The notes beneath the pieces are model-generated. The model was not told the DNA's origin, made no database searches, and was given only the letters and a program-made list of their open reading frames with translations. Source: Acinetobacter phage NJ01. From it: a stretch of 44,487 bases of DNA. The DNA lies in the sequence record OQ221563.1. One strand, written 5' to 3'. A program made the translations under genes and the position numbers. This document shows, one piece after another, positions 233-28,668 of the stretch (positions are counted from its first letter, which is position 1; every line of letters begins with the position of its first letter).

Positions 233-262
233 TTGCAATCCGTGTATTGGTTGCACTATATT
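233..262 (+). promoter_or_regulatory. sigma70-like promoter (TTGCAA, 18-bp spacer, TATATT) with two ATTGGTTGCA elements, driving the 292..1056 gene
   Basis: -35 TTGCAA at 233-238 and -10 TATATT at 257-262, with TTGGTTGCAC at 248-257 and 261-270. The stretch TATATTGGTTGCACACCAACA..GAGGA is near-identical to the promoter of the 10818 gene. Confidence 0.5.
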
Positions 263-291
263 GGTTGCACACCAACAACGAGGACGCAAAA

Positions 292-1056
292 ATGAGACTG
301 ACGAAAGATATTAAAAACCAGATTCTGGCTAACATCCTGCGCGACCATGAAATCGCGACCGAAGCAAAATCCATCATGATGGACTCTCGCGACTTGGCGT
401 ACGCCATTACGCTGGACTGTATGCCGGAAGGCATTCGCACGTTCGCCGAGTTACGCGCATATATCGCAGAAATCCGCGATAACCAGTCGAAGATGTATGG
501 CGTTAGCGTCTACACCAACAAGGCGACGTATAGCTATAACACCGACCGCCCAAAAGGTATCGGCAGCGTTTACAACGCCACCTTTGAAATCAACGCAGGC
601 GGCAATGTTCGCACCTTGTCATTGAGCGGCGACGGTCGACAACACCGCATACATCGCGGATACTGGGAAGAGAAATATATGAATAAGCTCGCTCCTGATC
701 TCGGCGATATCGTTCCTGGGTTCGAGGCAGTTATGCTCGCGTCAGTGTGCGAAGTGGACGAGGACGGGAAAGCGTTGCCGATATATCTTCCTCGCGATCG
801 CGCGGACTACCCGGCAGACCACGACTTCTGTAAGCGCCTGGACCGTAACGACAAGGCCCGCCGCGAATTGCGCGCGAAGTATGACGCGTTCAAACTAACC
901 GTTACCGGCGTGCTGGATATGCACAATACCGATAAGAAGCTGATCAAGGCGTGGCCTGAAGTTGAACAGTTTATTCCATACCCGGATAAGCCGAAGTCCA
1001 CGGCGGTGGCGCTGGACGTGAAGACGTTAAACGAAATCTGCGGTATTCCGCGCTAA
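292..1056 (+). CDS. Hypothetical protein (255 aa); plus-strand moron-like gene inside the minus-strand head/lysis block
   Basis: ORF with GAGGA RBS before the ATG at 292, its own promoter upstream and a hairpin terminator downstream. No recognisable motif. Confidence 0.7.
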   Translation: MRLTKDIKNQILANILRDHEIATEAKSIMMDSRDLAYAITLDCMPEGIRTFAELRAYIAEIRDNQSKMYGVSVYTNKATYSYNTDRPKGIGSVYNATFEINAGGNVRTLSLSGDGRQHRIHRGYWEEKYMNKLAPDLGDIVPGFEAVMLASVCEVDEDGKALPIYLPRDRADYPADHDFCKRLDRNDKARRELRAKYDAFKLTVTGVLDMHNTDKKLIKAWPEVEQFIPYPDKPKSTAVALDVKTLNEICGIPR

Positions 1057-1057
1057 C

Positions 1058-1090
1058 AAAAGGGGGCCATTACGGCCCCCGAATTATTTG
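1058..1090. terminator. Bidirectional intrinsic terminator between convergent genes
   Basis: GGGGGCC-attac-GGCCCCC stem (1063-1080), flanked by T-rich sequence on both strands. Confidence 0.6.
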
Positions 1091-1300
1091 CTGCAACTCC
1101 AGGACCTGCGCCCTCAGCTTCGCCCCGCATTCCATATTTTTCACGTCAATCATCAAATCTTCGTCGGGGTCCGCGGACGGGTTATCGAACTTGCACGGCG
1201 GTCGCAGTGCCGACTCCGTTAGCGGCATCAACGGCACGTTGCTTGATCCGCACGCGCTCAACATCAAAACTACAATCAGGGCGGTTAGGGCGCGTAACAT
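1070..1300 (-). CDS. o-spanin (Rz1-like outer-membrane lipoprotein), embedded out of frame in the i-spanin gene
   Basis: MLRALTALIVVLMLSAC-GSS signal peptide with lipobox; Pro-rich mature part. ATG at 1300 with AAGAGG RBS (track M1 is TTG). Overlaps 1182..1511 in another frame, the classic Rz/Rz1 architecture. Confidence 0.6.
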   Translation of the reverse strand: MLRALTALIVVLMLSACGSSNVPLMPLTESALRPPCKFDNPSADPDEDLMIDVKNMECGAKLRAQVLELQQIIRGP

Positions 1301-6175: not shown

Positions 6176-6388
6176 TTAAACGGCGCGCCCGTAGTATCGG
6201 GTTAACATGCTTTGTGCTTCGCTTATCGCGCCTTCTGTGTAGCGTATTTGCGACAGTATCTCGATTCGCTCATCCATCGACATCCCGACTGCCGCTGCCG
6301 TTCGTTCGAATCGGCGCAAGCCTTCGAGTTGCTTGCGTAGCTCTTTCAGGCGGTCGGCCTGCGTGCTCATGAATACTTGTCTGATCAT
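6176..6388 (-). CDS. Hypothetical small protein (70 aa)
   Basis: ORF whose ATG is coupled by an ATGA overlap to the upstream gene stop. Confidence 0.45.
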   Translation of the reverse strand: MIRQVFMSTQADRLKELRKQLEGLRRFERTAAAVGMSMDERIEILSQIRYTEGAISEAQSMLTRYYGRAV

Positions 6389-7527: not shown

Positions 7528-7593
7528 ATTTAATTAATTCCTGATTAGTGGACCGTGGACAATATACCACGGTCCGTATGGCGGCGGGCTATA

Positions 7594-7674
7594 TCAATTC
7601 GCAAATAACCATGCCGATAAAAGCCGCGGTGGTCCAGATCGCTAATACCCAAATATCTTTACGTGCCATCTTGA
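7594..7674 (-). CDS. Tiny hydrophobic micro-ORF (26 aa, MARKDIWVLAIWTTAAFIGMVICELI)
   Basis: GAGGAG RBS 8 nt before the ATG; single TM-like peptide. Followed by a 9-bp perfect hairpin (GGACCGTGG/CCACGGTCC, 7541-7566) 5' of the HTH-phosphoesterase gene. Confidence 0.3.
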
Positions 7675-7699
7675 TTACTCCTCTCGTTGATTGGTTGCA

Positions 7700-7730
7700 G
7701 TATGGCCCCTATGTTGGTTGCGAGTCAAGC
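7700..7730 (-). promoter_or_regulatory. Minus-strand sigma70-like promoter (TTGACT, 18-bp spacer, CATACT) containing two TTGGTTGC elements
   Basis: rc of 7723-7728 is TTGACT and rc of 7699-7704 is CATACT. TTGGTTGCA at 7691-7699 and TTGGTTGC at 7714-7721. Lies immediately downstream of the terminator at 7728-7758. Confidence 0.4.
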
Positions 7731-7758
7731 AATAAAAAGCCCGGTTAATTCCGGGCTT
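7728..7758 (-). terminator. Intrinsic terminator at the end of the lysis module
   Basis: AAGCCCGG-ttaatt-CCGGGCTT stem followed by a T-run on the minus strand. Confidence 0.65.
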
Positions 7759-10212: not shown

Positions 10213-10482
10213 TCATTTGATCAGTCTCCAGTGTTTGCCTACCCGCTCAACGGCGGGCTTCCGGCGGATAGTAATACGTATGCCAATTGGTTGCAAGGAC
10301 GTTTTTATGGCAAGCCCATGCTCCCTGGCGAACTGGTGCAGATAGCGGGTCTGCGTTAGTGGCTTCACATCGTCGCGATAGCTCCAGAACACAGAATCGC
10401 CCTCAATCGCATTCTTAGCCCATATTCGTATGCAATGCAGTGGAATATGCCACGAAAGCTGTTTAGCTCGTCTGCGGTCCAT
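10213..10482 (-). CDS. Hypothetical protein (89 aa)
   Basis: ORF in a chain of coupled leftward genes. Confidence 0.45.
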   Translation of the reverse strand: MDRRRAKQLSWHIPLHCIRIWAKNAIEGDSVFWSYRDDVKPLTQTRYLHQFAREHGLAIKTSLQPIGIRITIRRKPAVERVGKHWRLIK

Positions 10483-10818: not shown

Positions 10819-10846
10819 CGTTCAGTCCTCATGTTGGTGTGCAACC

Positions 10847-10875
10847 AATATAGCGTGGTGCTGGCACGAATGCAA
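10847..10875 (-). promoter_or_regulatory. sigma70-like promoter (TTGCAT, 17-bp spacer, TATATT) with two ATTGGTTGCA elements
   Basis: rc of 10847-10852 is TATATT and rc of 10870-10875 is TTGCAT. TGCAACCAA occurs on the plus strand at 10840-10848 and 10871-10879. Confidence 0.5.
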
Positions 10876-11035
10876 CCAATATTAATCATGCGCATGAAAA
10901 AGTTGATCGCTATCTGCTGTAACTGCAAACTGCATTTTTCACACCTCATTCTGCAACTCGCATTGGTTGCCTAGTTCAGTGGCGACCGCTATTTCCAATA
11001 TGCTGCCGTGTGTTATGCAATCCCCGGATTTTATG

Positions 11036-11205: not shown

Positions 11206-11278
11206 GTTTTATTGCATAACTATTCACTATATTCACACCACACGGCAACCAATGCGTCCGGCTAAAAACACTCAAAAT

Positions 11279-11363
11279 GGCAACCAATGCGCGCAAAATT
11301 TAGTCTTTTAGCGATATGGGAATTCCCATATTGGCAACCAATGCGCGCAAAATTTAATCTTTC
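11279..11363. repeat. Two 31-bp direct repeats flanking a perfect 18-bp palindrome, overlapping the primase-helicase stop codon
   Basis: GGCAACCAATGCGCGCAAAATTTAGTCTTTT at 11279-11309 and GGCAACCAATGCGCGCAAAATTTAATCTTTC at 11333-11363 (1 mismatch). ATATGGGAATTCCCATAT at 11314-11331. Confidence 0.8.
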
Positions 11364-13628: not shown

Positions 13629-13958
13629 TTATTTGGAAGTTTTATTATTGCGTACCCAGGAGCGCACTGTGCTCTGATTAATCCCAGTCAACTCGGCAAT
13701 CATCGCCCATGACTTTCCCTCCTCGCGCAAACGGATAACCTGTTTTTTGTATTCTTCCATTTCTTCATTGTGCTTTTGCAGCTTGCTGGCTGCCGTACCG
13801 TTGAGTAATTCCAGCTTCGCGCGCAATTCTTTTTCGGTAAGTCGCAGACGTTCGATTTCGAATAACACCGCACCCACGGCATCGGTATAAGCCCACGACC
13901 GGCTTGTTTCACTGCTAACAGTCTTCGTTAACATTTCGATTGCGTCGTTTATATTCAT
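13629..13958 (-). CDS. Small DNA-binding protein with C-terminal HTH (109 aa)
   Basis: Coiled-coil middle; C-terminal GKSWAMIAELTGINQSTVRSWV is HTH-like. First gene of the minus-strand primase operon. Confidence 0.6.
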   Translation of the reverse strand: MNINDAIEMLTKTVSSETSRSWAYTDAVGAVLFEIERLRLTEKELRAKLELLNGTAASKLQKHNEEMEEYKKQVIRLREEGKSWAMIAELTGINQSTVRSWVRNNKTSK

Positions 13959-13989: not shown

Positions 13990-14018
13990 AAACTACACCT
14001 AAAACCGCAAGGTGTCAA
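13990..14018 (-). promoter_or_regulatory. Putative minus-strand promoter (-35 TTGACA) for the HTH/primase operon, with a TTGGT..ACCAA operator-like inverted repeat
   Basis: rc of 14013-14018 is TTGACA with a weak -10 about 17-18 bp downstream. GTTGGTCATTAACCAAC inverted repeat at ~13971-13987 between the -10 and the RBS. Confidence 0.35.
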
Positions 14019-16789: not shown

Positions 16790-17024
16790 AGTGTTTGCAA
16801 TCTTATTGATGTTTTTGCTCGGCGCGCTGGGCTTTATCCTGCATTGCGTGCAAGGCGTGTTAATGGTGGCGTGGATGATTCGCCATCCGACCCGCTGGCT
16901 GGACGACGGCTACAGCACCATCGCCGTGGCGTGGATTGCGAGACATGGCGACCGACCTCCGTTAAGCTGGATCGAGAACGCCACCAACTACGTGACCAGA
17001 AATCTTTTTAATGAAAGTGCTTGA
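16786..17024 (+). CDS. Small membrane protein (80 aa)
   Basis: Two hydrophobic helices; ATGA overlap with the nuclease gene. Confidence 0.45.
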
Positions 17025-17114
17025 CCGCTTAGGCGCAACCAAGTAGATTAGCAACCAAGCCGAACGGGGTGGCTCACAATAACCCCGATACATGTGAAAA
17101 TGAGGAATTGGAAA

Positions 17115-17945: not shown

Positions 17946-17957
17946 AGGACAATGAAA

Positions 17958-20416: not shown

Positions 20417-20694
20417 TGACACCAGAAGGCAAGATTCAAAGTCACCTTATGAAGCTGGTGAAAGCCGTCGGCGGATTCTGCCGCAAAGTGGCCTGGGAGG
20501 GGCGCGCAGGTGCGCCCGATCTGATTATCATCATCAACGGCAAGATAGTTTTCGTCGAAGTGAAGCGCCCCGGTGGCAAACCGAAGCCGCACCAGGTACG
20601 AGAACATGAGCGAATGGCCCGCCGCGGTGCGGACGTTCGCGTCATTGACAACATAGCCGACTGTGATTTATTGGTTGCTGAATTGGTCGCTTAA
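20416..20694 (+). CDS. VRR-NUC domain nuclease (PD-(D/E)XK)
   Basis: GAPDLIIIINGKIVFVEVKRPGG gives the D...E.K core. ATG overlaps the pol stop (TAATG). Confidence 0.7.
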   Translation: MTPEGKIQSHLMKLVKAVGGFCRKVAWEGRAGAPDLIIIINGKIVFVEVKRPGGKPKPHQVREHERMARRGADVRVIDNIADCDLLVAELVA

Positions 20695-20734
20695 CAGTAT
20701 AGTGAGCAGGTTAGCACTAACGAGGATTTTAGAA

Positions 20735-20908
20735 ATGATTGAAGAAAAACGCTGCAGTAATTGCGGTTGCGTTAAACCGCTATCCCAGTTCCACAAATAC
20801 ACCGGCAAAACCGCGCGCAGCCCCGACGGGTATCGGGCCGAGTGCAAATCGTGCCGCAATAAAAAAGAGCGCGAACGGCAGCGCCGCTACCGCGCATCGC
20901 AAGGGTAA
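20735..20908 (+). CDS. Small zinc-ribbon protein (57 aa, CxxC...CxxC) with basic C-terminus
   Basis: CSNC..(26 aa)..CKSC followed by RNKKERERQRRYRASQG; AGGA RBS. Confidence 0.5.
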   Translation: MIEEKRCSNCGCVKPLSQFHKYTGKTARSPDGYRAECKSCRNKKERERQRRYRASQG

Positions 20909-20945
20909 TTAATACGGCGGGCTTGTCCCGCCATTTTTGGGAGAC

Positions 20946-21170
20946 ATGACGATGAAAGAACGCTACCGACTCACCACACTGGGCGAATGCAAACCAGGCG
21001 ATCGCGTATGGTTTATCGCGGGCATGAATTACCCGCTGCCGTTGACGGTGTGCTGGCAAAAATTTAAGAGCTTCCGGGCGACGGGTGTACACATCGGGCA
21101 CAGCACCAACTACGACGCCACAAAAAGGAACTGGAACAGTGAAACCGAAGTCTGGAAAAAGGCGGAATAA
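20946..21170 (+). CDS. Hypothetical protein (74 aa)
   Basis: GGGAGA RBS before the ATG at 20946; the track M1 is TTG. Confidence 0.45.
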   Translation: MTMKERYRLTTLGECKPGDRVWFIAGMNYPLPLTVCWQKFKSFRATGVHIGHSTNYDATKRNWNSETEVWKKAE

Positions 21171-21174
21171 AGAT

Positions 21175-22599
21175 ATGGCACGTTTCCGACGTCGCGAATA
21201 TCAGAAGTTGATAACCGCGTTCATCCTCAAGCATAAGCGATGCAATATATGGGCGACAATGGGGTCGGGTAAAACTGGCGCGACCATGTGGGCGCTGAAT
21301 AAAATGTTCCAGACCGGCATCCTGTCCAACCAGGAGGACCGCGTACTGGTGCTGGCCCCGCTGCGCGTTGCATCTGGCACATGGCCCCCGGAACAGGAAA
21401 AATGGCGCTTCCCAGCCCTGCTGGTAGTAGACGGCACTGGGTCGGAGAAGGACCGCATCGCTGCGCTTGAGAGCGACGCCAACGTGGTTTGTGTCAACTA
21501 TGATGTAGTTGAGTGGCTTGTTGAGTATTGCGGCGACGAGTGGCCCTTTACGGTCGTGGTTGCCGATGAATCCACTAAGCTGAAAGGCTATAGAAGCAAG
21601 CAGGGAAGTAAGCGCGCCCGTGCGCTGGCAGCGATCGCACATAAGCACGTCAAGCGCTGGATTAACCTGACCGGCACACCCGCACCGAACGGGCTGAAAG
21701 ACCTATGGGGACAGACGTGGTTTGTCGACGGTGGCGAACGCCTCGGCAGTAGCTATAAGGCATTTACTGATCGCTGGTTTATTAGCAAGCCTGTTAAACC
21801 TGGCAGCTTCACGATGCAGCACGCCCCGCTCAAGAACTCCGCGAAAGAAATACAACAACGCCTGTCCGACGTGTCGCTAACCGTTGACGCGGCTGAATAC
21901 TTCGGGTGTGACAAGCCGATCTATACGCCGGTTGTTGTGGACCTGCCGAAGAAAGCCCGCAAGATTTATGACCAGTTCGAAGCGGAGTTATTTGCGGAAC
22001 TGGAAAGCGGAACTGTGGAGGCGGCAAACGCCGCGTCGAAGACCATTAAGTGCCTTCAGCTTGCTTCCGGGGCCGTATATAAGGTCGACGAAGACGGCGA
22101 GCGCACCGATGAATGGGTGAAAATTCACGACGCTAAACTGGACGCGCTGGAAAGTATCGTGGAGGAGTTGAACGGCGCACCGTTGCTCGTCGCGTACCAA
22201 TATAAGCATGATCTGGCACGTCTTAAGAAGAAATTCCCGCACGGCGTAGCTATGGGTAAGGGTAAGCAAGGCAATAAGGATATGGAAGCGTGGAACAGGG
22301 GCGAGATCCCCATCATGTTCGCACATCCGGCATCGGCGGGTCACGGCCTTAACTTGCAGGATGGCGGACACCACCTTGCTATCTTCTCAGACACCTGGAA
22401 CTATGAGCACTTTGCGCAGATCGTGGAGCGTATCGGGCCAGTTCGCCAGATGCAAGCCGGACACCCTCGTCCGGTATTCGTCTACATTATCCAGGCGCGC
22501 GGCACACTGGATGAACTAGTCGCAGAGCGTCGAGACAGTAAGCGAGATATTCAGGACGACCTGATGGAATACATGAAAGCTAAAAAGGCGCGCAAATGA
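21175..22599 (+). CDS. SNF2-family (DEAD/DEAH-like) helicase
   Basis: Walker A MGSGKTG, DExx box VVVADESTKL, C-terminal helicase domain. True ATG at 21175; the upstream part of the track ORF is out-of-gene. Confidence 0.85.
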   Translation: MARFRRREYQKLITAFILKHKRCNIWATMGSGKTGATMWALNKMFQTGILSNQEDRVLVLAPLRVASGTWPPEQEKWRFPALLVVDGTGSEKDRIAALESDANVVCVNYDVVEWLVEYCGDEWPFTVVVADESTKLKGYRSKQGSKRARALAAIAHKHVKRWINLTGTPAPNGLKDLWGQTWFVDGGERLGSSYKAFTDRWFISKPVKPGSFTMQHAPLKNSAKEIQQRLSDVSLTVDAAEYFGCDKPIYTPVVVDLPKKARKIYDQFEAELFAELESGTVEAANAASKTIKCLQLASGAVYKVDEDGERTDEWVKIHDAKLDALESIVEELNGAPLLVAYQYKHDLARLKKKFPHGVAMGKGKQGNKDMEAWNRGEIPIMFAHPASAGHGLNLQDGGHHLAIFSDTWNYEHFAQIVERIGPVRQMQAGHPRPVFVYIIQARGTLDELVAERRDSKRDIQDDLMEYMKAKKARK

Positions 22600-23306
22600 C
22601 TATTGCTAAAATGACAATCTGGTCATTGTTTGACGGCAGCGGCTTGATGATTGAGCGTGCTGCCGAGATGGGGCATAAGTGTTATTGCTTCAACTACTCC
22701 GAAGCCGATCACGGGTCGTACCTGGACTACCGGATTTATGGGCGCGGTATCCGATATCGTAATGAGTTTATCGATCTGGACTTCGTGGACCGCGCGATGA
22801 ATGGTGATTTCGGCACGCCGGATATCATTTATGCATTCCCGCCGTGTACGGATCTGGCGGTTAGTGGTGCGCCAGCGTTCCCGCGCAAACGCGCCCGCGA
22901 CCCTGCCTTCCAGCTTAAGGCGGTGCGCACCGCGAAGATCGCCGCTTACCTGGGTGATTTCTTCGAAGTGCCGTATATGATTGAGAATCCGCGCAGCGTG
23001 CTTTCGACTCAATGGCGTAAGCCGGACCACTCGTTTGACCCGTGGGAGTATGGCGGCTATTTGCCAGAGGATGACGTACACCCGTTATTCCCTGAATACA
23101 TCAACGCCCGCGATTCATATCCGAAGCTGACCTGCTTATGGACCGGCAACGGCTTCCGTATGCCTGAGAAGAAACCTGTTTTCGTTGAAAAAGGGTACTC
23201 GAAGCAGTATAGTCGCCTCGGAGGCAAATCAGCCCGCACCAAATTAATCAGGTCGCTCACCCCGCGCGGCTTCGCAATCGCAGTCAATGAGGAAAATTTA
23301 GAATGA
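22596..23306 (+). CDS. DNA cytosine-C5 methyltransferase-like protein, unusually short (236 aa, catalytic half only)
   Basis: Motif I LFDGSGL, motif IV FPPCTD (Pro-Cys), motif VI ENPRS. No recognisable target-recognition domain or motifs IX/X. Confidence 0.5.
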   Translation: MTIAKMTIWSLFDGSGLMIERAAEMGHKCYCFNYSEADHGSYLDYRIYGRGIRYRNEFIDLDFVDRAMNGDFGTPDIIYAFPPCTDLAVSGAPAFPRKRARDPAFQLKAVRTAKIAAYLGDFFEVPYMIENPRSVLSTQWRKPDHSFDPWEYGGYLPEDDVHPLFPEYINARDSYPKLTCLWTGNGFRMPEKKPVFVEKGYSKQYSRLGGKSARTKLIRSLTPRGFAIAVNEENLE

Positions 23307-23626
23307 ATACCACATTCGAAGCCATCGATTTTTCGGTAGCAATGACCAATCAGCTATTCACCTACGACAGTAAAACGGGCGTCATCCGTCTGAAGTCCAC
23401 CGGCTGCAAGATTGGCAACCTCAACACTGCCGACGGCGGAACACGTATCGAGTGCAACGGCAAGACGCTATCGGGCGCACGCGTGGCGTGGATTATTGAG
23501 ACAGGCAATACAATCCCTCCAGGCTATGCCGTTGTGTGCCGCCAGCGCACACCAGGCCACTACGGCAACCGCATTAGTAACCTGTATCTGGTAGACGTTG
23601 CACGCGACCCAAATTTTTATTCGTAA
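23303..23626 (+). CDS. Hypothetical protein (107 aa), possibly a degenerate HNH_3-like fold
   Basis: ARVAWIIETGNTIPPGYAVVCRQRTPGHYGNRISNLYLV parallels the HNH_3 pattern HRlvWe.f.G.iP.G..idHiDgnk.NNr..NLrlv but lacks the catalytic His. Confidence 0.4.
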   Translation: MNTTFEAIDFSVAMTNQLFTYDSKTGVIRLKSTGCKIGNLNTADGGTRIECNGKTLSGARVAWIIETGNTIPPGYAVVCRQRTPGHYGNRISNLYLVDVARDPNFYS

Positions 23627-23631
23627 ATTGG

Positions 23632-23660
23632 TTGCATAACCGTATTGGTTGCATTATATT
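23632..23660 (+). promoter_or_regulatory. sigma70-like promoter (TTGCAT, 17-bp spacer, TATATT) built from two direct ATTGGTTGCAT elements
   Basis: ATTGGTTGCAT at 23627-23637 supplies the -35; a second copy at 23644-23654 abuts the -10 TATATT at 23655-23660. Confidence 0.55.
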
Positions 23661-23707
23661 GAGGGTGTCCGGTTTGGACGCCCTTTTTAATACCCGGAGA
23701 CAGTGAT

Positions 23708-23950
23708 ATGAAATCATTATTTTTCGACTACGACGGCGACCTTCGATTTTGGGTGCTCCTCACCCTCATGATTGCCGGTTGTATTGGCATACCTTCGACG
23801 GCTATTTACTACACGGAACGCTACGAATGCAAGACCGTGTACGCCGAGCAAACTGGACGTAACACCCAATGGCGCTATGGTGTCTGCTGGGTAGAGATGG
23901 ATGGTAAATTTATCCCACGCGATGAAATCCGCACTACGGAGATTAAATAA
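23708..23950 (+). CDS. Small membrane protein (80 aa)
   Basis: Hydrophobic segment WVLLTLMIAGCIGIPSTAIYY; GGAGACAGTG RBS. Confidence 0.45.
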   Translation: MKSLFFDYDGDLRFWVLLTLMIAGCIGIPSTAIYYTERYECKTVYAEQTGRNTQWRYGVCWVEMDGKFIPRDEIRTTEIK

Positions 23951-24415
23951 ATGAAAATTTTACAAGAAGAAAAAGCATACTGGGCCGCGCAATGCCTCGA
24001 AGCCCGTGAACAGGCCGAACGCGCGAACGCGCTGGCGGACACCAACCAGGCGCTATATGAAGGAGAGAAGAAAGTGCGCCGGGAGTTAGAGGAACGCTTC
24101 GAACTGCTTTTCGAGTTGATGGGGATTATGCGGCGCACCGGATACACCACCAGCGTTGCGCTAAACCGCATTACTGCCGACGGTCTGCGTGAGCAATGCA
24201 AACGGGCCGAGGAGTACGTGCGCCCGAAGGTCAGCCAGTCTTCGATCGCCCGGAAAGACCTTGTGCTTATGGCGTGGCGCAACCCGACAAACGGCAGCTT
24301 CTACCCGGACGCGCGCCCGCTTAGTGCTGAGGAGACAAAGCGCGTGCAACGCATTCTCAAAACTGGCAATAAAATCGCCCTGTATGCTATAGACACCGAC
24401 CATGCTGAAGAGTGA
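23951..24415 (+). CDS. Hypothetical protein (154 aa)
   Basis: Coiled-coil-rich N-terminus; TAAATG coupling. Confidence 0.5.
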   Translation: MKILQEEKAYWAAQCLEAREQAERANALADTNQALYEGEKKVRRELEERFELLFELMGIMRRTGYTTSVALNRITADGLREQCKRAEEYVRPKVSQSSIARKDLVLMAWRNPTNGSFYPDARPLSAEETKRVQRILKTGNKIALYAIDTDHAEE

Positions 24416-24887
24416 GCAAAAAGATAGCTGGCGCACGCCGCCAGCTTTATTTAAACCGCTGCGCCGGAAGTACCGATTCCGTTATGACATGGCGGCGAGC
24501 GATGACAACCACCTTCTACCGCGTTACTTCACGGCAGAGCACAGCGCGCTCGATGCGGACTGGTCAGAGTTGAAAGGGTGGAAGTGGTGCAACCCGCCGT
24601 ATTCCGATCCGCTGCCGTGGGTCAAGTGCGCAGCGCATGGACGTCGGACCGTCATGCTACTGAATCAGGACACGTCGACGAAGTGGGCGAAGCTGGCCCG
24701 GAAGACTGCAAACCTGATAATTCTTCTGGACTGGCGGATCCGATTTATACATGCCGCCACCGGTGAAGTCGGGCCGAGCAATAACAAGTGCCAGCAATTG
24801 ATAATCTTTGACGAAGCGCCGCCCACCGGCAGCGCACAAATTGAAATAATGAGCGAGAGTGAGCTACATGAATATCTTAATCGTTGA
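24402..24887 (+). CDS. Phage-type DNA N6-adenine methyltransferase (Dam family)
   Basis: Catalytic CNPPYS motif, and an N-terminus (SWRTPPALF...RFRYDMAASDDNHL) typical of the phage Dam family. Confidence 0.85.
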   Translation: MLKSEQKDSWRTPPALFKPLRRKYRFRYDMAASDDNHLLPRYFTAEHSALDADWSELKGWKWCNPPYSDPLPWVKCAAHGRRTVMLLNQDTSTKWAKLARKTANLIILLDWRIRFIHAATGEVGPSNNKCQQLIIFDEAPPTGSAQIEIMSESELHEYLNR

Positions 24888-25092
24888 CCGCGACCACGCG
24901 GTCGTAGACCAAATGCAAAAAGACTATAACATCGATCCACGCCGCGATCGTGTGCGTCGCGTGTCACGGCCCGAACACCTACTAGGCATGGACCTTACCG
25001 GGTGGCTTGTCATTACCCGACGTTGTCATTTCGTGTGCAACTCCTACACCGCGCGGAGCGCCCGAGACACCCTTATTGAGGCATTGAAATGA
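24868..25092 (+). CDS. Hypothetical protein (~74 aa)
   Basis: MNILIVDRDHAVVDQ... ORF with GAGAGTGAG RBS, overlapping the end of the Dam gene. Confidence 0.4.
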   Translation: MNILIVDRDHAVVDQMQKDYNIDPRRDRVRRVSRPEHLLGMDLTGWLVITRRCHFVCNSYTARSARDTLIEALK

Positions 25093-25559
25093 AATTACTA
25101 ATTTGTGATCTGGATGGCGTTATTAATGGATCAAGCGATGCGCGCGCCGACCTGGTGCCGGGGATAAAAACTAAATCCACCTTCTGGGCGAAGTGGCACA
25201 AGGCGCACGTCCGCGAAGACCTGAACATGGATATGCTGCCGCTACTGCGCATGTATAAAGAGCAAGGCTTCGAGATCGCGTATCTAACCAACCGGCAGCG
25301 AGAATGCTGGGACACCACCGCTGAGCAATTGGAGGTCTTCCCGGTAGGCCGGTTGTTTATGCGCCACATGCTGGACGACACCCCGCCGCCAGAGTTTAAG
25401 GCGTGCGCCGTGTTCAAAATGGTCTGCTATGCGGACGTGTCGGAACTGGTCATCATTGAGGACTGCCCGAAGAACATCGCGGCAATTCGTCGGGCGTGTG
25501 GTGATTTGGTCCCGAAAATTTACGCAATAAACGTTGCAAAATTCACTTGCAACCAATAG
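25089..25559 (+). CDS. HAD-superfamily phosphatase (5'(3')-deoxyribonucleotidase / PNK-phosphatase-like)
   Basis: N-terminal HAD motif I LLICDLDGVI; overall size and layout of NT5C-type nucleotidases. Confidence 0.5.
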   Translation: MKLLICDLDGVINGSSDARADLVPGIKTKSTFWAKWHKAHVREDLNMDMLPLLRMYKEQGFEIAYLTNRQRECWDTTAEQLEVFPVGRLFMRHMLDDTPPPEFKACAVFKMVCYADVSELVIIEDCPKNIAAIRRACGDLVPKIYAINVAKFTCNQ

Positions 25560-25576
25560 GTTGGTTGCACTATAGT
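25547..25576 (+). promoter_or_regulatory. sigma70-like promoter (TTGCAA, 18-bp spacer, TATAGT) whose spacer is a perfect inverted repeat TGCAACCAA-tagg-TTGGTTGCA
   Basis: Palindrome at 25548-25569. -35 TTGCAA at 25547-25552 and -10 TATAGT at 25571-25576. Confidence 0.55.
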
Positions 25577-25622
25577 AAACGTGTTGGGGCAATACCGCCC
25601 CCTCACTAAAAAGGGTAATACT

Positions 25623-26177
25623 GTGAAAGCATACGAATACTGCAAAAACGCCGCCACCACTATGGAACAGCGCGGGAAAGAAAACGGCTATGACAACGCG
25701 AAAGAAGAACGCAGCGCTAAACAAATCGCTGCCGTGTTTAACGCGCTTACCGGTCGCGACCTTACCGAGCAAGAAGCCTGGACCTTCCTGATCTGCCTGA
25801 AGCTGGTGCGCCAGCACCGTAAGCACCAGGAAGATAACATCGTGGATCTGGTGGCGTATGCCGCCCTGCTGGGCGAGTCTTACATGACCGTGCATGACGA
25901 GATTCAGATCGATACAACGGCAGCACAATTCGACAGCCTCAAAGGCCTGTCCGTGCGTCTCGACGGTGAGATTAATGCGTATAACAGCGCAATTCGCGTT
26001 GCAGAGGACACGGTGGCCTCGTTCGGCAAGACTGTTAGGGCCGCCAATTTTGGAGTTGTAGCCCAGGACGTCCAGCCTATGGTCGTGCTCACCGGCGAAG
26101 ACGGATCGAAAATCTGCATGACGCAGGAAGATTTCCGTAACATGGAAAAAACACTGGTGACTGGCGCACTTAAATAA
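25623..26177 (+). CDS. Hypothetical protein with all-alpha MazG-like / dATP-dGTP pyrophosphohydrolase-like N-terminal region
   Basis: ENGYDNAKEERSAKQIAAVFNALTGRDLTEQEAWTFLICLKLVRQHRKHQEDNIVDLVAYAALLGE follows the G.Y...A..ltG..lt..daw.hm.h.Kl.R.......D...DlagYAal..E pattern. Start uncertain (GTG at 25623 with AAGGG RBS, or ATG at 25662). Confidence 0.4.
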   Translation: MKAYEYCKNAATTMEQRGKENGYDNAKEERSAKQIAAVFNALTGRDLTEQEAWTFLICLKLVRQHRKHQEDNIVDLVAYAALLGESYMTVHDEIQIDTTAAQFDSLKGLSVRLDGEINAYNSAIRVAEDTVASFGKTVRAANFGVVAQDVQPMVVLTGEDGSKICMTQEDFRNMEKTLVTGALK

Positions 26178-26218
26178 TTTAATCGCGGGCTTCGGCCCGC
26201 ATCAATGAGGGATTCACA

Positions 26219-26794
26219 ATGTACGGCGAATATGAAATAACCGGTAAACAATTCCACCTGGCGGCAATGATTGCAAGCATCGAGTTTGAACAGTGGCGCT
26301 TAAAGTCTGACGCGTGCAAGCAAAGCAGACTCGTCGGTGTGCTGGGCGAAATGTTTGCAGGCATGTACCTCGAAGGGCAGGCGGGCGGGCGTAGCTGTAT
26401 CCCGCAAGGTTTGCTAATGCGTACCGGCCTGTTTAGCGCTAACACTATCGACCGCGGCGATATTATCATGGTCGGCAAGCGAAAGGTAAAATCCGGCCCC
26501 GACTTCCGAGAACATATGATTGATGCCGTCTGGACCTACGAGGTTAAGGCCACCAGCGGCATCCGTCGGGGGTTGGTGGAGGCACGTTGCGCTCGCGAGT
26601 ATCTCACTCGACGAGTTGCCGGTGTTATTCTGGTGGGGGTATCGTTCGGGCAGCATAGCGCCAGCGGCGTGATTGAGGATATTGCGGAGCCATACGTGAT
26701 CGTGAACGACTGGCCCCTGGTGGAAGTGGAAGGTAAGGAATATTACGAAAGCCCGCTTGTGCGGCGCAAAATGGACTGGGAAAACTCAAACTAA
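26219..26794 (+). CDS. Hypothetical protein (191 aa), possible PD-(D/E)XK-like fold
   Basis: GDIIMVGKRK...AVWTYEVKA could be a D...ExK core; otherwise no motif. Confidence 0.45.
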   Translation: MYGEYEITGKQFHLAAMIASIEFEQWRLKSDACKQSRLVGVLGEMFAGMYLEGQAGGRSCIPQGLLMRTGLFSANTIDRGDIIMVGKRKVKSGPDFREHMIDAVWTYEVKATSGIRRGLVEARCAREYLTRRVAGVILVGVSFGQHSASGVIEDIAEPYVIVNDWPLVEVEGKEYYESPLVRRKMDWENSN

Positions 26795-26822
26795 AAAAAA
26801 AGGGGCAGCAAAGCCCCTTTTC
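26793..26822. terminator. Bidirectional intrinsic terminator between the early block and the tail genes
   Basis: A8-AGGGGC-agcaaa-GCCCCT-T5. Confidence 0.75.
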
Positions 26823-26827
26823 CATCT

Positions 26828-28618
26828 CTACGCACTACTCGTGGCTGTTTCCAATCCTGTTTCGGGCATTTGCACCCGGACAGAAATGTAGGTGCTCGGT
26901 GGAATATCCACCGGGTCGCCGTCTTCGATACCATCCATAATATTTCTCGCGAACGCAGGAGCGTTAGTATGCGTTCGATGGTAAGTGCGAATCTCAATAC
27001 TACCATCATTCAATACCGCATAATCCAGCCACAACAAAGGTTGCTTGTTTACATCCACCGGTATCTCAAAGCCGCCATTGACCCCACCCCAGGACGCGTC
27101 GGAATTGAGGCCCAGGCAACCCGATATGACATAAACACCTTTGGACACCCGTGTTACAGAGCAACCTTTGGACTCGTCGTTAAACTCTGCGGTTCCGTCG
27201 CCTTTGATTTTCACAATAGGTGATGCGATTTTGATAAAACCGTTGCTGTCAACAGTGGTGTTTAGGTCACGAATTAAGAAATCCCGCCAGTTAGTGATAA
27301 GCGCTGGGTTGGACGTACGTTGCCGATAGCGCGGGGCTTGATTTGTTATAGTTGAAAAACCAATTTGTGACCAGTTACCTGTACTGCCAGGGCCACCACC
27401 ACCCTCCGCAATTGTCATAATCTCGGCGTAGGTGTAAGGGCCACCGTTGCCCCCAGGCCACTGTGACACATCAGCGCTATAAAAGCCAATGCCCGTGTCA
27501 AGTTCCGGCGAAGCGTAAAGTGTGTTGATAGTGTGGTCGTAGTTCATTGCACGGAGACTACGACACGCCGTAAATGTTGTAGTGCCTCCTGTGCCGCCAC
27601 TCTGAACAGGTAACGCCGCGCGTTCATGTGTAGAGCTGTTATAGTAACCCCAGTCGCTAGACGCCACAAAGAATGTGTACGCGCCACTAGGTTCTAAAAT
27701 TGTGGTGTCAATGGTAGACTGCTTGAAGCGGTCGAGATCAAGATTGGTGCGTGCTTCCGCAACATCAGCAACGTCACTAAGGTTGCTGGCTTTTGCCAGA
27801 AATCTCGACGGGTCGATCTCATTCTTGAATTGTTCAGCCTCGTCGCGAATAACGCCGGTGTCAGTCTTAATCTGCTCAGTCTGGTCCTTGATGGCCTGCG
27901 TATCCGTCTTAATCTGGTCCGTCTGCGTCTTGATGATATTGGTGGCGTCGTGGATAGCCTGTGTTTCAGTCTTGATCTGGTCCGTCTGCGTCTTGATGGC
28001 CTGTGTTTCAGTCTTGATCTGGTCCGTCTGCGTCTTTATGGTATTTGTTGCGTCGTGGATAGCCTGTGTTTCAGTCTTGATCTGGTCGGTGGCATCGCGG
28101 ATGCCCGCGGTCGTGTTCTTGATGCCTTCGGCCTCGTTGCGAAATCCTTGCGCGGCAGCCTCCGACGCAGCGGCTTGTTGTTGCAGGTTGCGCATCTCAA
28201 CGGGGTCGATTTCCTTCATCAATTGCGACAGGTAGCCCCATGACATACCCTGCATAACTTGCCCGTTCGGCAGCGTTACCGTGATTTCTTCAGCGTCTCC
28301 GAAGATCGCACGCCAGTTGTTTTCGTCCGCGAGCATCAAGCGCAACGCTTTCTGTGCCTGTACTGTTACGCCCATCGTTGCCAGCGACATGGTATCGCGC
28401 TTAACGCCATCCCACGCAAGGCCTGCTGCCGTCGGGCCGTCGAACGGCAGCACCAGCGTAAGCGCGGTATCGCTTTCGACGGACGCGATCGCAACAGTGT
28501 AAGGGACTTGCCCAACCACCAGCGATAAGAAGTCGCCTGCATTAAACGCGGTAAACGTCGTGCCTACCCCGACAACCGCCTTGCTGTTATTCGTTACGGA
28601 TAGTGTACCCGCTGCCAT
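26828..28618 (-). CDS. Side tail fibre protein with a long coiled-coil pseudo-heptad repeat region
   Basis: 596 aa. Repeats of TQTDQIKTETQAIHDATNTIK and variants (residues ~175-260) give DNA tandem repeats at ~27830-28120. C-terminal Gly/Trp-rich distal domain. Confidence 0.8.
   Translation of the reverse strand: MAAGTLSVTNNSKAVVGVGTTFTAFNAGDFLSLVVGQVPYTVAIASVESDTALTLVLPFDGPTAAGLAWDGVKRDTMSLATMGVTVQAQKALRLMLADENNWRAIFGDAEEITVTLPNGQVMQGMSWGYLSQLMKEIDPVEMRNLQQQAAASEAAAQGFRNEAEGIKNTTAGIRDATDQIKTETQAIHDATNTIKTQTDQIKTETQAIKTQTDQIKTETQAIHDATNIIKTQTDQIKTDTQAIKDQTEQIKTDTGVIRDEAEQFKNEIDPSRFLAKASNLSDVADVAEARTNLDLDRFKQSTIDTTILEPSGAYTFFVASSDWGYYNSSTHERAALPVQSGGTGGTTTFTACRSLRAMNYDHTINTLYASPELDTGIGFYSADVSQWPGGNGGPYTYAEIMTIAEGGGGPGSTGNWSQIGFSTITNQAPRYRQRTSNPALITNWRDFLIRDLNTTVDSNGFIKIASPIVKIKGDGTAEFNDESKGCSVTRVSKGVYVISGCLGLNSDASWGGVNGGFEIPVDVNKQPLLWLDYAVLNDGSIEIRTYHRTHTNAPAFARNIMDGIEDGDPVDIPPSTYISVRVQMPETGLETATSSA
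27830..28120. repeat. Intragenic tandem DNA repeats (period ~42/63 bp) encoding the tail-fibre coiled-coil
   Basis: Repeated ctggtccgtctgcgtcttgatgg and cctgtgtttcagtcttgatctgg units. Confidence 0.7.
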
Positions 28619-28639
28619 ATCTGAATCCTCTTAAATTGG

Positions 28640-28668
28640 TTGCATTAATGGTTAAGCAGTGCAATACT
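28640..28668 (+). promoter_or_regulatory. sigma70-like promoter with an ATTGGTTGCAT element for the plus-strand lipoprotein gene
   Basis: TTGCAT at 28640-28645 and (A)ATACTA about 17-18 bp downstream. Confidence 0.4.

What the first reader, a model, noticed from the sequence alone, without database searches (positions are those of the whole stretch)
233..28668. Conserved ATTGGTTGCA element in 15 or more intergenic sites, integrated into sigma70-like promoters
TTGGTTGC(A) or its complement occurs at about 248, 261, 7691, 7714, 10840, 10871, 10963, 11244, 11279, 11333, 14149, 17034, 17051, 23628, 23645, 25548, 25561 and 28636. All sites are non-coding, whereas an 8-mer is expected ~1.4 times by chance on both strands. 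It supplies the -35 (TTGCAT), abuts the -10 (ATTGGTTGCAnTATATT), or follows the -10 (TATATTGGTTGCACACCAACA, found twice near-identically at 257-277 and 10832-10852). It occurs as direct pairs and once as a perfect inverted repeat. This looks like a phage-specific promoter class and/or an operator for a phage-encoded regulator.
Basis: seen in the sequence. Interest (0 to 1): 0.65.

Follow-up and report, generated by a model that had tools for sequence, protein, structure and literature searches.

The report
Phage operator motif inside early promoters
A 9-10 base motif (A-TTGGTTGC-A/C) sits inside the core of almost every early/middle promoter, and beside the likely replication origin, of this virulent E. 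coli phage (genus Dhillonvirus); it is most likely the binding site of a phage-encoded helix-turn-helix regulator, a known kind of control not yet described for this phage group.

Summary
TTGGTTGC occurs 21 times against about 2 expected. Seventeen copies lie in the 7% of the genome that is non-coding (p ~2e-16). The window is a complete, circularly permuted Dhillonvirus genome (HK578/JL1/SO-1 group). Across six other Dhillonvirus genomes, motif positions are 96-98% conserved against about 84% for flanks. Two more distant relatives also keep the motif.

One or two copies lie between -40 and +5 of a sigma70-like promoter for each non-structural transcription unit, in either orientation. They overlap the -35, fill the spacer, or cover the -10/+1. 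Four more copies flank an origin-like repeat region next to the helicase-primase gene and have no promoter. Structural and lysis genes instead have conserved extended -10 promoters without the motif.

Variable position and orientation inside the RNA polymerase footprint indicates an operator, probably repressive, rather than a promoter-specificity element. The best candidate binder is the 109-aa coiled-coil plus sigma-region-4-like HTH protein (13629-13958). It is lineage-restricted, its HTH is near-invariant, and it is probably autoregulated. The HTH-metallophosphoesterase is disfavoured. Nothing supports the zinc-ribbon protein.

No experiment exists, and I found no description in the searchable literature. 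This is a new variant of a known kind, of moderate interest.

The parts
233..269 (+). Promoter P1 upstream of the Nmad5-domain gene (292-1056): TTGCAA(233-238)-N18-TATATT(257-262). It has a forward motif in the spacer (246-255) and a second overlapping the -10/+1 (260-269).
   Evidence: Nmad5 domain
7690..7728 (-). Promoter P2 for a 26-aa peptide, the HTH-metallophosphoesterase and orf70: TTGACT(7728-7723)-N18-CATACT(7704-7699). A reversed motif abuts the -35 (7714-7721) and another directly follows the -10 (7691-7698).
10268..10296 (-). Possible internal promoter inside gene 10213-10482: TTGCAA(10296-10291)-N17-TACTAT(10273-10268), with a reversed motif overlapping the -35 (10287-10294). The site is conserved in all six genomes compared.
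   Evidence: promoter read from the sequence
10841..10880 (-). Promoter P3 for the small-gene block starting at 10818: a forward motif supplies the -35 (TTGG[TTGCAT], 10879-10870), then N17, then TATATT(10852-10847) overlapped by a second forward motif (10848-10841).
10959..10971 (+). Promoter-less copy CGCATTGGTTGCC on one side of the origin-like repeat region. It is inverted relative to the three copies at 11244-11345.
11244..11345 (-). Three direct promoter-less copies of (C)GCATTGGTTGCC (11245, 11280, 11334; spacing 35 and 54 nt), immediately downstream of the helicase-primase gene. The SO-1 GenBank record annotates this as repeat 'region B'.
   Evidence: the same 3 direct + 1 inverted layout is seen in L009/L011
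14125..14164 (.). Overlapping divergent promoters sharing one motif (14148-14157). P4 (+) is TTGACA(14135-14140)-N18-TATCAT(14159-14164), the best sigma70 match in the window, with a reversed motif in the spacer. A weaker P4' (-) is TTGCAG(14152-14147)-N16-TAATTT(14130-14125).
13990..14018 (-). Proximal promoter of the HTH-protein/helicase-primase operon, TTGACA-N17-TAGTTT, followed by the palindrome GTTGGTcattaACCAAC. In relative L011 the same place carries an exact reversed motif about +4..+13 downstream of TTGACG-N17-TATATT.
   Evidence: (the HK578 record annotates this promoter)
13629..13958 (-). Gene for the candidate motif-binding protein (109 aa; SO-1 gp47 family, mis-annotated as 'transposase' or 'Gam'). 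It has a long helix at residues 22-79 plus a C-terminal HTH at 84-108.
17021..17058 (+). Promoter P5 for the SSB/DNA-polymerase block: TTGACC(17021-17026)-N17-TAGATT(17044-17049). One reversed motif is in the spacer (17035-17042) and one lies 1 nt after the -10 (17051-17058).
20670..20703 (+). Promoter P6 for the Lar-like/helicase/methylase block: a forward motif supplies the -35 (TTGG[TTGCTG], 20671-20680), then N17, then TATAGT(20698-20703). A one-mismatch copy ATTGGTCGC lies in the spacer (20682-20690). The promoter overlaps the end of gene 20413-20694.
23627..23660 (+). Promoter P7: a forward motif supplies the -35 (23628-23637, TTGCAT), and a second forward motif in the spacer (23645-23652) ends 2 nt before TATATT(23655-23660). 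A terminator-like hairpin follows, so transcripts starting here would lack its 5' arm.
25547..25576 (+). Promoter P8: TTGCAA(25547-25552)-N18-TATAGT(25571-25576). An inverted motif pair covers the -35 (25549-25556, reversed) and the spacer (25561-25568, forward).
28635..28681 (+). Promoter P9 for the lipoprotein/membrane genes: a forward motif supplies the -35 (28636-28645, TTGCAT), then N17, then AATACT(28663-28668). A one-mismatch reversed copy (28674-28681) lies near +1.
34092..34099 (+). Copy inside minor-tail gene K, with no promoter context. It is probably a chance occurrence kept by coding constraint.

Best explanation
A-TTGGTTGC-A/C is the operator of a phage-encoded sequence-specific DNA-binding protein. 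The most likely binder is the 109-aa coiled-coil/HTH protein encoded at 13629-13958, the first gene of the helicase-primase operon.

One or two operators lie inside the core (-40 to +5) of each sigma70-type promoter that I could read upstream of the early/middle (non-structural) transcription units. A bound protein would therefore compete with host RNA polymerase. That would shut down or throttle these units, including the protein's own operon, as the protein accumulates.

Structural and lysis genes have motif-free extended -10 promoters that do not depend on a -35 element, so they would escape this control. Four further operators flank the origin-like repeat region next to the helicase-primase gene. 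The same protein may therefore also act at, or insulate, the replication origin.

Shown by computation: enrichment, conservation, site geometry, the lineage restriction of the protein and the conservation of its HTH. Inferred: that this protein binds the motif, that the effect is repression, and any role at the origin.
For: (1) Enrichment. There are 21 copies against about 2 expected. Density in non-coding DNA is 55-fold that in coding DNA, p ~2e-16. One-mismatch variants are not enriched.

(2) Footprint. In six Dhillonvirus genomes the nine positions -1..7 are 96-98% identical, against a mean of about 84% for flanks. In promoter P7 the 8-9 nt between the two copies vary freely while the copies stay fixed.

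(3) Deeper relatives. L009 and L011 have proteins only 66-85% identical to the window's. TTGGTTGC is still the most frequent 8-mer in L009 and tied second in L011, and it sits in the same promoters. In L011 two tandem reversed copies fill the spacer of the main early promoter.

(4) Geometry. The promoter scan independently calls five motif-bearing promoters: P1, P2, P4, P5 and P8. The others read as TTGG[TTGCAN]-N17-[-10]. Copies occur forward and reversed and are centred near -35, -30, -26, -18 and -3. That is expected of an occluding operator, not of an element read by polymerase.

(5) Promoter-less copies. Four copies (3 direct + 1 inverted) lie downstream of the helicase-primase gene, and this layout is conserved in L009/L011.

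(6) Binder. The 109-aa protein passes Pfam thresholds for HTH_23, HTH_28 and Sigma70_r4_2. Its AF2 model (pLDDT 83) shows a 58-residue helix plus an HTH. Homologues were found only in Dhillonvirus-like phages, which is where the motif was found. Residues 47-106 are almost invariant while the N-terminal 45 residues are hypervariable. HK578 has a 48%-identical variant, keeps the recognition helix and keeps the motif. The gene sits beside the motif-bearing divergent control region. In L011 its own promoter carries an exact copy just downstream of the -10.

(7) The only other recognisable HTH protein is disfavoured.

(8) Late and lysis units have conserved TGnTATAAT promoters without the motif.
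Against: There is no binding, transcript-start or expression data for any Dhillonvirus in the searchable literature, so every functional step is inferred.

Overall counts of promoter-like matches in the window are no higher than in shuffled sequence. Individual promoter calls are therefore weak, and several rest on my own reading of the sequence.

The phyletic argument for the 109-aa protein would apply equally to about 30 other proteins with no match in the two Guernseyvirinae genomes compared, or to the N-terminal 350 residues of the helicase-primase.

The sign of regulation is unknown. Copies overlapping weak -35 elements (TTGCTG, TTGCAG) could activate instead of repress.

Spacing between paired copies (14, 16, 17, 23 and 31 bp) shows no common helical phase, so cooperative dimer binding is not evident.

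A host factor cannot be excluded.
Confidence: 0.6

Rival explanations
1. Promoter-specificity element (T4 middle-promoter / MotA-box style). A phage factor, possibly the same sigma-region-4-like protein, binds the motif and recruits or re-targets host RNA polymerase. The motif would then define a positively controlled promoter class.
For: Five promoters use the motif as their -35 region with fixed geometry, TTGG[TTGCAN]-N16/17-[-10], and some of those -35 hexamers are weak (TTGCTG, TTGCAG). Every early/middle unit carries the motif and late units do not. The candidate protein resembles sigma region 4.
Against: The same motif occurs reversed, in the spacer, and over or after the -10. It also occurs in promoters that already have near-consensus -35 elements (TTGACA, TTGACC, TTGACT). 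It occurs without any promoter beside the origin-like region. An activator that must contact polymerase needs a fixed position and orientation. No MotA or AsiA homologue was seen.
Confidence: 0.15
2. Origin iteron / DnaA-box-like system. The motif is primarily the recognition site of the phage replication initiator or helicase loader, which could be the 109-aa protein or the N-terminal part of the helicase-primase. The promoter copies would be secondary autoregulatory or coupling sites.
For: Four copies in a conserved 3 direct + 1 inverted layout lie directly downstream of the helicase-primase gene, in a region the SO-1 record marks as a repeat region. The candidate gene is the first gene of the helicase-primase operon, separated from it by 4 nt. 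The motif is an asymmetric 9-mer like a DnaA box (established knowledge).
Against: Only 4 of 21 copies are there, and their spacing (35, 54 and about 280 nt) is unlike regular iterons. Thirteen or more copies lie inside promoter cores across a 28-kb span. The origin has not been mapped. The same region holds a different and far denser repeat (GCGGGACA) that is at least as good an iteron candidate.
Confidence: 0.12
3. Binding site of a host (enterobacterial) DNA-binding protein that the phage exploits to time or tune its promoters.
For: The earliest promoters must work before any phage protein exists. The hosts recorded for this group are almost all Enterobacterales (E. coli, Shigella, Salmonella, Sodalis) and could share such a factor.
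Against: To my knowledge no E. coli regulator has this consensus (recalled from memory, not tested). CytR's GTTGCATT matches only 3 copies and misses the invariant TTGG. Guernseyvirinae phages related to the window and infecting E. coli or Salmonella show no enrichment, with 3 copies each. The motif's distribution matches that of a phage-encoded HTH protein.
Confidence: 0.08
4. No separate function: the promoters are diverged copies of one duplicated promoter cassette, or the motif is simply a favoured -35 variant.
For: P1 and P3 share a 21-nt identical block. TTGCA resembles the -35 consensus.
Against: Apart from that one block, only the 9-10-mer is shared between sites, and it occurs in both orientations and at different positions. 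The TTGG part, which is not needed for a -35 element, is invariant. Copies lie after the -10 and in promoter-less DNA. Flanks diverge between genomes while the core does not.
Confidence: 0.05

Closest known systems
Phage P1 C1 repressor and its dispersed operators
   Same: Many copies of an asymmetric operator (17 or more in P1) are scattered over the whole phage genome, singly or in pairs. They overlap -35/-10 regions of many promoters, including promoters of replication functions (established knowledge).
   Different: P1 is temperate and C1 is its immunity repressor, whereas this phage group is virulent and no lysogeny gene was annotated or detected in the scans run. The operator sequence and length differ (17 bp ATTGCTCTAATAAATTT against a 9-10-bp core). 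The 109-aa coiled-coil/HTH protein matched only generic HTH families, none tied to a characterised phage repressor. No direct comparison with C1 was run.
Mycobacteriophage L5 gp71 'stoperators'
   Same: A small HTH protein recognises an asymmetric 13-bp site as a single unit. About 30 copies are dispersed in short intergenic gaps of the phage genome and silence transcription globally (established knowledge).
   Different: Stoperators are oriented one way relative to transcription and block elongation, mostly away from promoters. Here both orientations occur and the sites lie inside promoter cores. L5 is temperate. No sequence relationship was detected.
T4 MotA boxes (middle promoters, sigma appropriation)
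   Same: A phage-specific motif replaces or overlaps the -35 region of sigma70 -10-type promoters of one temporal class.
   Different: The MotA box has one position (about -30) and one orientation and acts positively together with AsiA. Here position and orientation vary, and no MotA/AsiA homologue was found.
DnaA boxes / plasmid Rep iterons
   Same: An asymmetric 9-mer is used both at an origin and inside promoters, where it gives autoregulation and coupling to replication. The gene for the binder is adjacent to the origin.
   Different: The origin is not mapped here. Most copies are in promoters rather than at the origin. The protein has no AAA+ or winged-helix Rep domain.
Sigma-70 region 4 / LuxR-GerE and transposase-resolvase type HTH domains
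   Same: The C-terminal 40 residues score above the Pfam thresholds for Sigma70_r4_2, HTH_23 and HTH_28. They superpose locally on IstA, CENP-B-N, LuxR-type and resolvase HTHs. The motif contains a -35-like TTGCA.
   Different: The protein has no sigma region 2 or 3. Its NCBIfam ECF-sigma score is far below the cut-off (21.6 against 42.9 bits). The whole-chain fold search gave no significant match (best E = 0.6).

Membership tests
Sigma70-type (-35/-10) promoters | TTGACA-like and TATAAT-like hexamers 16-18 nt apart, upstream of and oriented towards a gene | tested here: met
   The scan calls P1, P2, P4, P5 and P8 with 9-11 of 12 matches. P3, P6, P7, P9 and P10 read as TTGCAN-N17-TAnnnT from the sequence. 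Caveat: total promoter-like counts are not above those in shuffles.
Sigma70-type (-35/-10) promoters | Mapped transcription start 5-9 nt downstream of the -10 | not testable with these tools
   No 5'-end data for Dhillonvirus were found in the searchable literature.
Operator of a sequence-specific regulator | A short sequence over-represented in non-coding DNA and conserved more strongly than its flanks | tested here: met
Operator of a sequence-specific regulator | Demonstrated binding by a defined protein | not testable with these tools
   This needs EMSA, footprinting or ChIP.
P1 C1-type dispersed operator system | An asymmetric operator in many dispersed copies overlapping promoters | tested here: met
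P1 C1-type dispersed operator system | Binder homologous to C1, and temperate immunity function | tested here: not met
   The candidate protein matches only generic HTH families; it was not compared directly with C1. No integrase or lysogeny module appears in the gene map or among the proteins scanned.
L5 gp71 stoperators | A single orientation relative to transcription, with sites mostly outside promoters | tested here: not met
   Both orientations occur, and 13 or more copies lie inside promoter cores.
T4 MotA-box middle promoters | Fixed position (about -30) and orientation, with MotA/AsiA homologues encoded | tested here: not met
   Copies are centred anywhere from -35 to -3 in both orientations. 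No such homologues appear in the Pfam or PHROG scans.
MerR-type spacer-binding activators | A dyad-symmetric site in an over-long (19-20 bp) spacer | tested here: not met
   Spacers are 17-18 bp, the site is asymmetric, and there is no MerR domain.
Origin iterons / DnaA boxes | Clustered repeats at a mapped origin, bound by the initiator | tested here: inconclusive
   Four copies flank an origin-like repeat region next to the helicase-primase gene. The origin is not mapped, and a second repeat family (GCGGGACA) dominates that region.
Pfam HTH_23 / HTH_28 / Sigma70_r4_2 (candidate binder) | Score above the curated gathering threshold | tested here: met
   29.5 against 24.6, 25.7 against 25.0 and 27.9 against 25.7 bits.
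ECF sigma factors (candidate binder) | Regions 2 and 4 present, with an NCBIfam score above the cut-off | tested here: not met
   Only region-4-like residues 55-103 align, at 21.6 bits against a 42.9 cut-off.

The most novel reading that the evidence does not exclude
The 109-aa protein is a free-standing sigma-region-4-like domain on a coiled-coil stalk. It recognises a -35-like 9-mer (TTGG-TTGCA) and displaces or out-competes sigma70 region 4 at every -35-dependent phage promoter. The same protein marks the replication origin. Late genes escape because their extended -10 promoters need no -35 contact. One small protein would thereby couple the onset of replication to the early-to-late transcription switch in a virulent phage that has no RNA polymerase or sigma factor of its own.
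Probability: 0.15. Interest if true: 0.7.

Novelty: new variant of a known kind. Interest (0 to 1): 0.45.

Why it matters
Dhillonviruses are among the commonest virulent E. coli siphophages in isolate collections, with more than 150 genomes in the collection searched here, and they are used in phage-defence and phage-therapy studies. Their transcription programme appears not to have been characterised.

If the reading is right, one 9-mer and one small protein organise the whole early/middle regulon. That gives three things:
- a ready map of about ten promoters and their operators;
- a testable model of how a phage without its own polymerase or sigma factor times gene expression, with -35-dependent, operator-bearing promoters set against extended -10 promoters;
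- a compact, orthogonal repressor/operator pair for engineering.

It would also correct a widespread mis-annotation, since the protein is currently labelled 'transposase', 'resolvase' or 'Gam nuclease inhibitor' in GenBank records.

Tried and rejected
Literature. Searches for Dhillonvirus plus 'promoter' or 'transcription start', HK578 plus 'promoters', the SO-1 repeats and the motif string itself found no description of the motif or any transcript mapping. Hits on the motif string were unrelated primers. Older genome papers in subscription journals (SSL-2009a, EP23, JL1) could not be searched.

HTH-metallophosphoesterase (6385-7527) as binder. Rejected. Homologues 76% identical over residues 4-379 sit in K1G and Salmonella phage ST3, whose genomes hold only 3 copies of the 8-mer. 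L009 and L011 keep the motif but have no such gene between the endolysin and TerS.

Zinc-ribbon protein (20735-20908). It matches only Lar-like and endonuclease VII zinc-ribbon families, with nothing linking it to the motif.

Scan of viral contigs for paired motifs (TTGGTTGC-N1-25-TTGGTTGC). Uninformative. Of the four densest loci inspected, three were tandem repeats that look coding and one (L084) was Dhillonvirus-like. None of the stretches held encoded a homologue of the 109-aa protein.

Rfam on the whole window: no family matched.

PDB searches with the 109-aa protein, by sequence and by fold. Only a designed repeat protein, coiled-coil noise and local HTH matches came up, with no whole-chain analogue.

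CytR (GTTGCATT), the sigma54 -24/-12 elements, NtrC, MarA and DnaA consensus sequences were compared from memory and do not fit the invariant TTGGTTGC.

The Markov (k-2) z-score for the 8-mer was low. This is because the sub-words are themselves inflated by the motif, so I relied on the shuffle-based test.

Full report
**What the window is.** Megablast of 10 kb of the window finds 183 phage records. Most are 90-95% identical and belong to the genus Dhillonvirus (HK578, JL1, SO-1, EP23, several BASEL-collection Bas phages). Transferring the JL1 gene set by tblastn gives a complete, co-linear gene map. The scaffold gene runs off the end of the window and continues at its start, with its start codon at 143 on the minus strand. 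The window is therefore a circular permutation of a whole ~44.5-kb genome. Structural, packaging and lysis genes are on the minus strand, and the replication and nucleotide-metabolism genes (14181-26794) are on the plus strand. About 7% of the sequence is non-coding.

**Check of the observation.**
- TTGGTTGC occurs 21 times on both strands, against 1.99 +/- 1.42 in shuffles, and no shuffle gave more than 8.
Three further exact copies exist, at 10287, 20671 and 34092.
- ATTGGTTGC and ATTGGTTGCA are the most frequent 9-mer and 10-mer of the genome.
- Seventeen copies lie in 3.2 kb of non-coding DNA and four in 41 kb of coding DNA (odds ratio 55, p = 1.8e-16).
- One-mismatch variants (about 40) are scattered through genes at roughly the number I estimate by chance from base composition (about 32). 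Only a few sit next to exact copies: ATTGGTCGC at 20682 and a reversed copy at 28674.
- The element is therefore a strict 8-mer core with a preferred A on its 5' side and A or C on its 3' side.

**Conservation.**
- JL1, LM40P1, rolling, SO-1, HK578 and CHD5UKE2 hold 18-22 copies each, at the same places.
- I located each window site in these genomes by blastn and aligned it. The nine positions -1..7 are 96-98% identical, against about 84% on average for the 20 positions on either side.
- In promoter P7 the 8-9 bases between the two copies vary (ATAACCGT, ATTGCGAG, GTAATTAG ...) while both copies are fixed.
- Two more distant metagenomic relatives, L009 and L011, have proteins only 66-85% identical to the window's. 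TTGGTTGC is still the most frequent 8-mer in L009 (10 copies in 10.7 kb) and tied second in L011 (13 copies in 20 kb), in the corresponding intergenic regions.

**Where the copies sit.** The consensus promoter scan independently reports five motif-bearing sites:
- P1: 233-262 (+)
- P2: 7728-7699 (-)
- P4: 14135-14164 (+), 11 of 12 matches, the best in the window
- P5: 17021-17049 (+)
- P8: 25547-25576 (+)

The remaining sites read directly as TTGG[TTGCAN]-N17-[TATATT / TATAGT / AATACT]. These are P3, P6, P7 and P9, plus a possible internal promoter, P10, at 10296-10268.

Relative to the -10 element the 10-mer occupies these positions:
- -39..-30, forward, supplying the -35 (five promoters)
- -34..-25, reversed, overlapping a TTGCAA -35 (two promoters)
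- -30..-21, reversed, abutting TTGACT (P2)
- -23..-14, forward in P1, P7 and P8; P4 has a reversed copy at the same position and P5 one at -22..-13
- -9..+4, forward in P1 and P3, reversed in P2 and P5

Within a given promoter the spacing of a pair is conserved between genomes. Between promoters it differs (14, 16, 17, 23 and 31 bp, plus one inverted pair). In L011 two tandem reversed copies fill the whole spacer of the main early promoter: TTGAC[GCAACCAA]C[GCAACCAA]TC-TAGTAT. As a caveat, promoter-like matches as a whole are no more frequent than in shuffles. The promoter assignments therefore rest on position, orientation towards genes and conservation, not on the scan alone.

**Copies without a promoter.** The 535-nt gap downstream of the helicase-primase gene carries three direct copies of CGCATTGGTTGCC (11245, 11280, 11334). 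A fourth, inverted copy lies at 10963. Between them are a dense cluster of a different repeat (GCGGGACA), a strong hairpin and TGCATAA boxes. The SO-1 record annotates this stretch, and a similar one between the tail chaperone and tape-measure genes, as repeat regions A and B. L009 and L011 keep the 3 direct + 1 inverted layout of TTGGTTGCC copies even though the sequence between them differs. These copies show that the motif is a site in its own right and not merely part of a promoter.

**Which transcription units have the motif.** Every non-structural unit has it:
- Nmad5 (P1)
- small peptide / metallophosphoesterase (P2)
- the small-gene block (P3, P10)
- the HTH protein / helicase-primase operon (P4' and the degenerate palindrome at its proximal promoter)
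- early genes and exonuclease (P4)
- SSB and DNA polymerase (P5)
- helicase and methylase (P6)
- ligase-like protein and Dam methylase (P7)
- genes 25662-26794 (P8)
- lipoprotein and membrane protein (P9)

In contrast, motif-free extended -10 elements (TGnTATAAT-like) lie upstream of TerS (6137), the holins (9000), the tape-measure gene (38818), the tail fibre (28699) and gene M (36133). They are conserved across the other Dhillonvirus genomes, and the TerS element also in L009/L011. Two promoter types thus appear to separate early/middle from late/lysis genes. This is an inference from sequence, not from transcript data.

**Who binds it.** Pfam, PHROG and NCBIfam scans of the non-structural proteins recover one recognisable DNA-binding domain, in the 109-aa protein at 13629-13958 (HTH_23, HTH_28 and Sigma70_r4_2, all above threshold). 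A second, HTH-like N-terminal stretch in the 380-aa metallophosphoesterase (6385-7527) is visible only in its sequence and in the 'transcriptional regulator' label given to its homologues in the SO-1 and ST3 records.

The metallophosphoesterase is widespread (2,062 records). It is 76% identical over residues 4-379 in Kagunavirus K1G and Jerseyvirus ST3, whose genomes hold only 3 copies of the 8-mer. It is also missing from its syntenic position in L009/L011, which keep the motif. It is therefore an unlikely binder.

The 109-aa protein has homologues only in Dhillonvirus-like phages: 154 phage records and 24 clusters among 5.8 billion proteins. Its residues 47-106 are almost invariant, while the first 45 residues are hypervariable. 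HK578 and CHD5UKE2 carry a 142-149-aa variant with only 48% identity. They retain the recognition helix (INRSTIRQW against INQSTVRSW) and the same motif. In L011 the protein's C-terminal half is 84% identical, more than the neighbouring helicase-primase (66%).

The AF2 model (pLDDT 83) shows a 58-residue helix (22-79) running into a C-terminal HTH (84-108). A profile search of PDB sequences gives a weak vimentin coiled-coil match (E = 0.011), consistent with a coiled coil. The fold search returns only local HTH matches to IstA, CENP-B-N, LuxR/GerE and resolvase domains.

The gene lies next to the divergent control region, where one motif copy is shared by two overlapping divergent promoters (P4 and P4'). 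In L011 its own promoter, TTGACG-N17-TATATT, is followed by an exact reversed copy. This all fits an autoregulated DNA-binding regulator. The phyletic argument does not single out this protein among other proteins that lack a match in the Guernseyvirinae genomes compared.

**Mechanism.** Sites at variable positions and in both orientations, all within the region contacted by RNA polymerase (-40 to +5), are characteristic of repression by occlusion. An activator or specificity factor would need a fixed geometry.

My best model has five steps:
1. Host sigma70 polymerase fires the -35/-10 promoters immediately after infection.
2. The coiled-coil HTH protein is made from the leftward operon together with the helicase-primase.
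3. It accumulates and binds the operators.
4. It turns down the early/middle units and its own synthesis.
5. The extended -10 promoters of the late and lysis genes, which carry no operator and need no -35 contact, stay active.

The four copies around the origin-like region suggest a second role at the origin, or insulation of it from transcription. Shown by computation: enrichment, footprint, site geometry and protein distribution. Inferred: binding, sign of regulation, timing and the origin role.

**Comparison with known systems.** In working principle the closest are the dispersed asymmetric operators of P1 C1 and the stoperators of mycobacteriophage L5 gp71. Both belong to temperate phages, and their proteins showed no detectable relation to this one. 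T4 MotA boxes share the 'phage motif at -35 of one temporal class' aspect but have fixed geometry and positive action. DnaA boxes and Rep iterons share the asymmetric 9-mer used at both an origin and promoters. The system fails defining features of each of these (see the membership table), so I file it as a new variant of the operator-regulon kind. I found no description of it in the searchable literature. Older genome papers in subscription journals could not be checked.

**Verdict.** Confidence that the motif is a protein-binding operator is high, at about 0.75-0.8. Confidence in the full best explanation, including the identity of the binder and repression, is about 0.6 at most, and for each specific inferred step it is nearer 0.5. 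Interest is moderate. The principle is familiar, but it gives a complete and testable regulatory map for a very common and poorly studied group of coliphages.

Noticed in passing
window 11090-11200 and 38890-39155: A second, unrelated repeat family, GCGGGACA(G/A): about 8 copies downstream of the helicase-primase gene and about 12, in both orientations, between the tail-chaperone and tape-measure genes. Each cluster is followed by a strong hairpin (agtctttcagactagacgggg...cccctcgtctgagact) and TGCATAA boxes. These correspond to the 'region B' and 'region A' repeat regions of the SO-1 record. They are candidates for origin iterons or a late regulatory site.
   Followed up: partly
window 6137, 9000, 28699, 36133, 38818 (all minus strand): Conserved extended -10 elements (TGnTATAAT-like) without a recognisable -35 and without the TTGGTTGC motif. 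They lie upstream of TerS, the holins, the tail fibre, tail gene M and the tape-measure gene. The TerS element is kept even in the distant relatives L009/L011. This suggests a separate late promoter class.
   Followed up: partly
window 14031-14123 (+): A possible small RNA of about 58 nt. It has a strong promoter (TTGAAA-N17-AATAAT with upstream TG) followed by an intrinsic terminator (hairpin 14089-14115 plus T9; fold z = -2.9). It would be antisense to any transcript of the HTH-protein operon that starts at the distal P4' promoter. The region is highly conserved, with compensatory changes in the terminator stem in LM40P1 and L011. No Rfam family matches.
   Followed up: partly
window 13629-13958 (protein residues 1-45): The N-terminal 45 residues of the candidate regulator are hypervariable between otherwise 90%-identical phages. 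There are at least three allelic types, including a longer 142-149-aa form in HK578/CHD5UKE2. The C-terminal 60 residues are nearly invariant. The protein is variously mis-annotated as transposase, resolvase or Gam nuclease inhibitor.
   Followed up: partly
window 23655-23695, 25571-25610, 17044-17085: Several motif-bearing promoters are placed immediately upstream of a hairpin; the one after P7 (23655-23695) is terminator-like (hairpin plus T-run). A transcript starting at such a promoter would begin inside the 5' arm and could read through. Transcripts arriving from upstream would carry the complete hairpin and could terminate there. This would be a compact terminator-promoter insulation arrangement.
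   Followed up: no
window 7589-7669 (-) versus JL1 gene D873_gp04 (window 7578-7757, +): The plus-strand ORF annotated in JL1 runs across promoter P2, both of its operators and a terminator, and is probably spurious. On the minus strand a 26-aa hydrophobic peptide with a strong ribosome-binding site (GAGAGGAG-N8-ATG) follows P2.
   Followed up: partly
window 14197-14248: A 52-nt stretch at the start of the first early gene (14181-14870) is 92-94% identical to unannotated DNA in phages outside Dhillonvirus with ~51-kb genomes (slyngel, ityhuna, swan01, tunus), which I take to be T1-like. No similarity was reported for the neighbouring sequence in those records. It may be a shared regulatory or recombination module.
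   Followed up: no
window 1-143 and 43925-44487: The scaffold gene is split by the window ends, with its start codon at 143 on the minus strand. The window is therefore a circularly permuted complete genome. The scaffold/capsid operon has a possible promoter, TTGCGA-N17-AATATT (226-198, minus strand), back-to-back with P1.
   Followed up: partly
window 292-1056: The gene driven by P1 encodes an Nmad5 (nucleotide-modification-associated domain 5) protein (Pfam E = 1e-58). This locus is variable cargo between Dhillonvirus genomes: JL1 has a 74-aa gene sharing only the first 54 residues.
   Followed up: no
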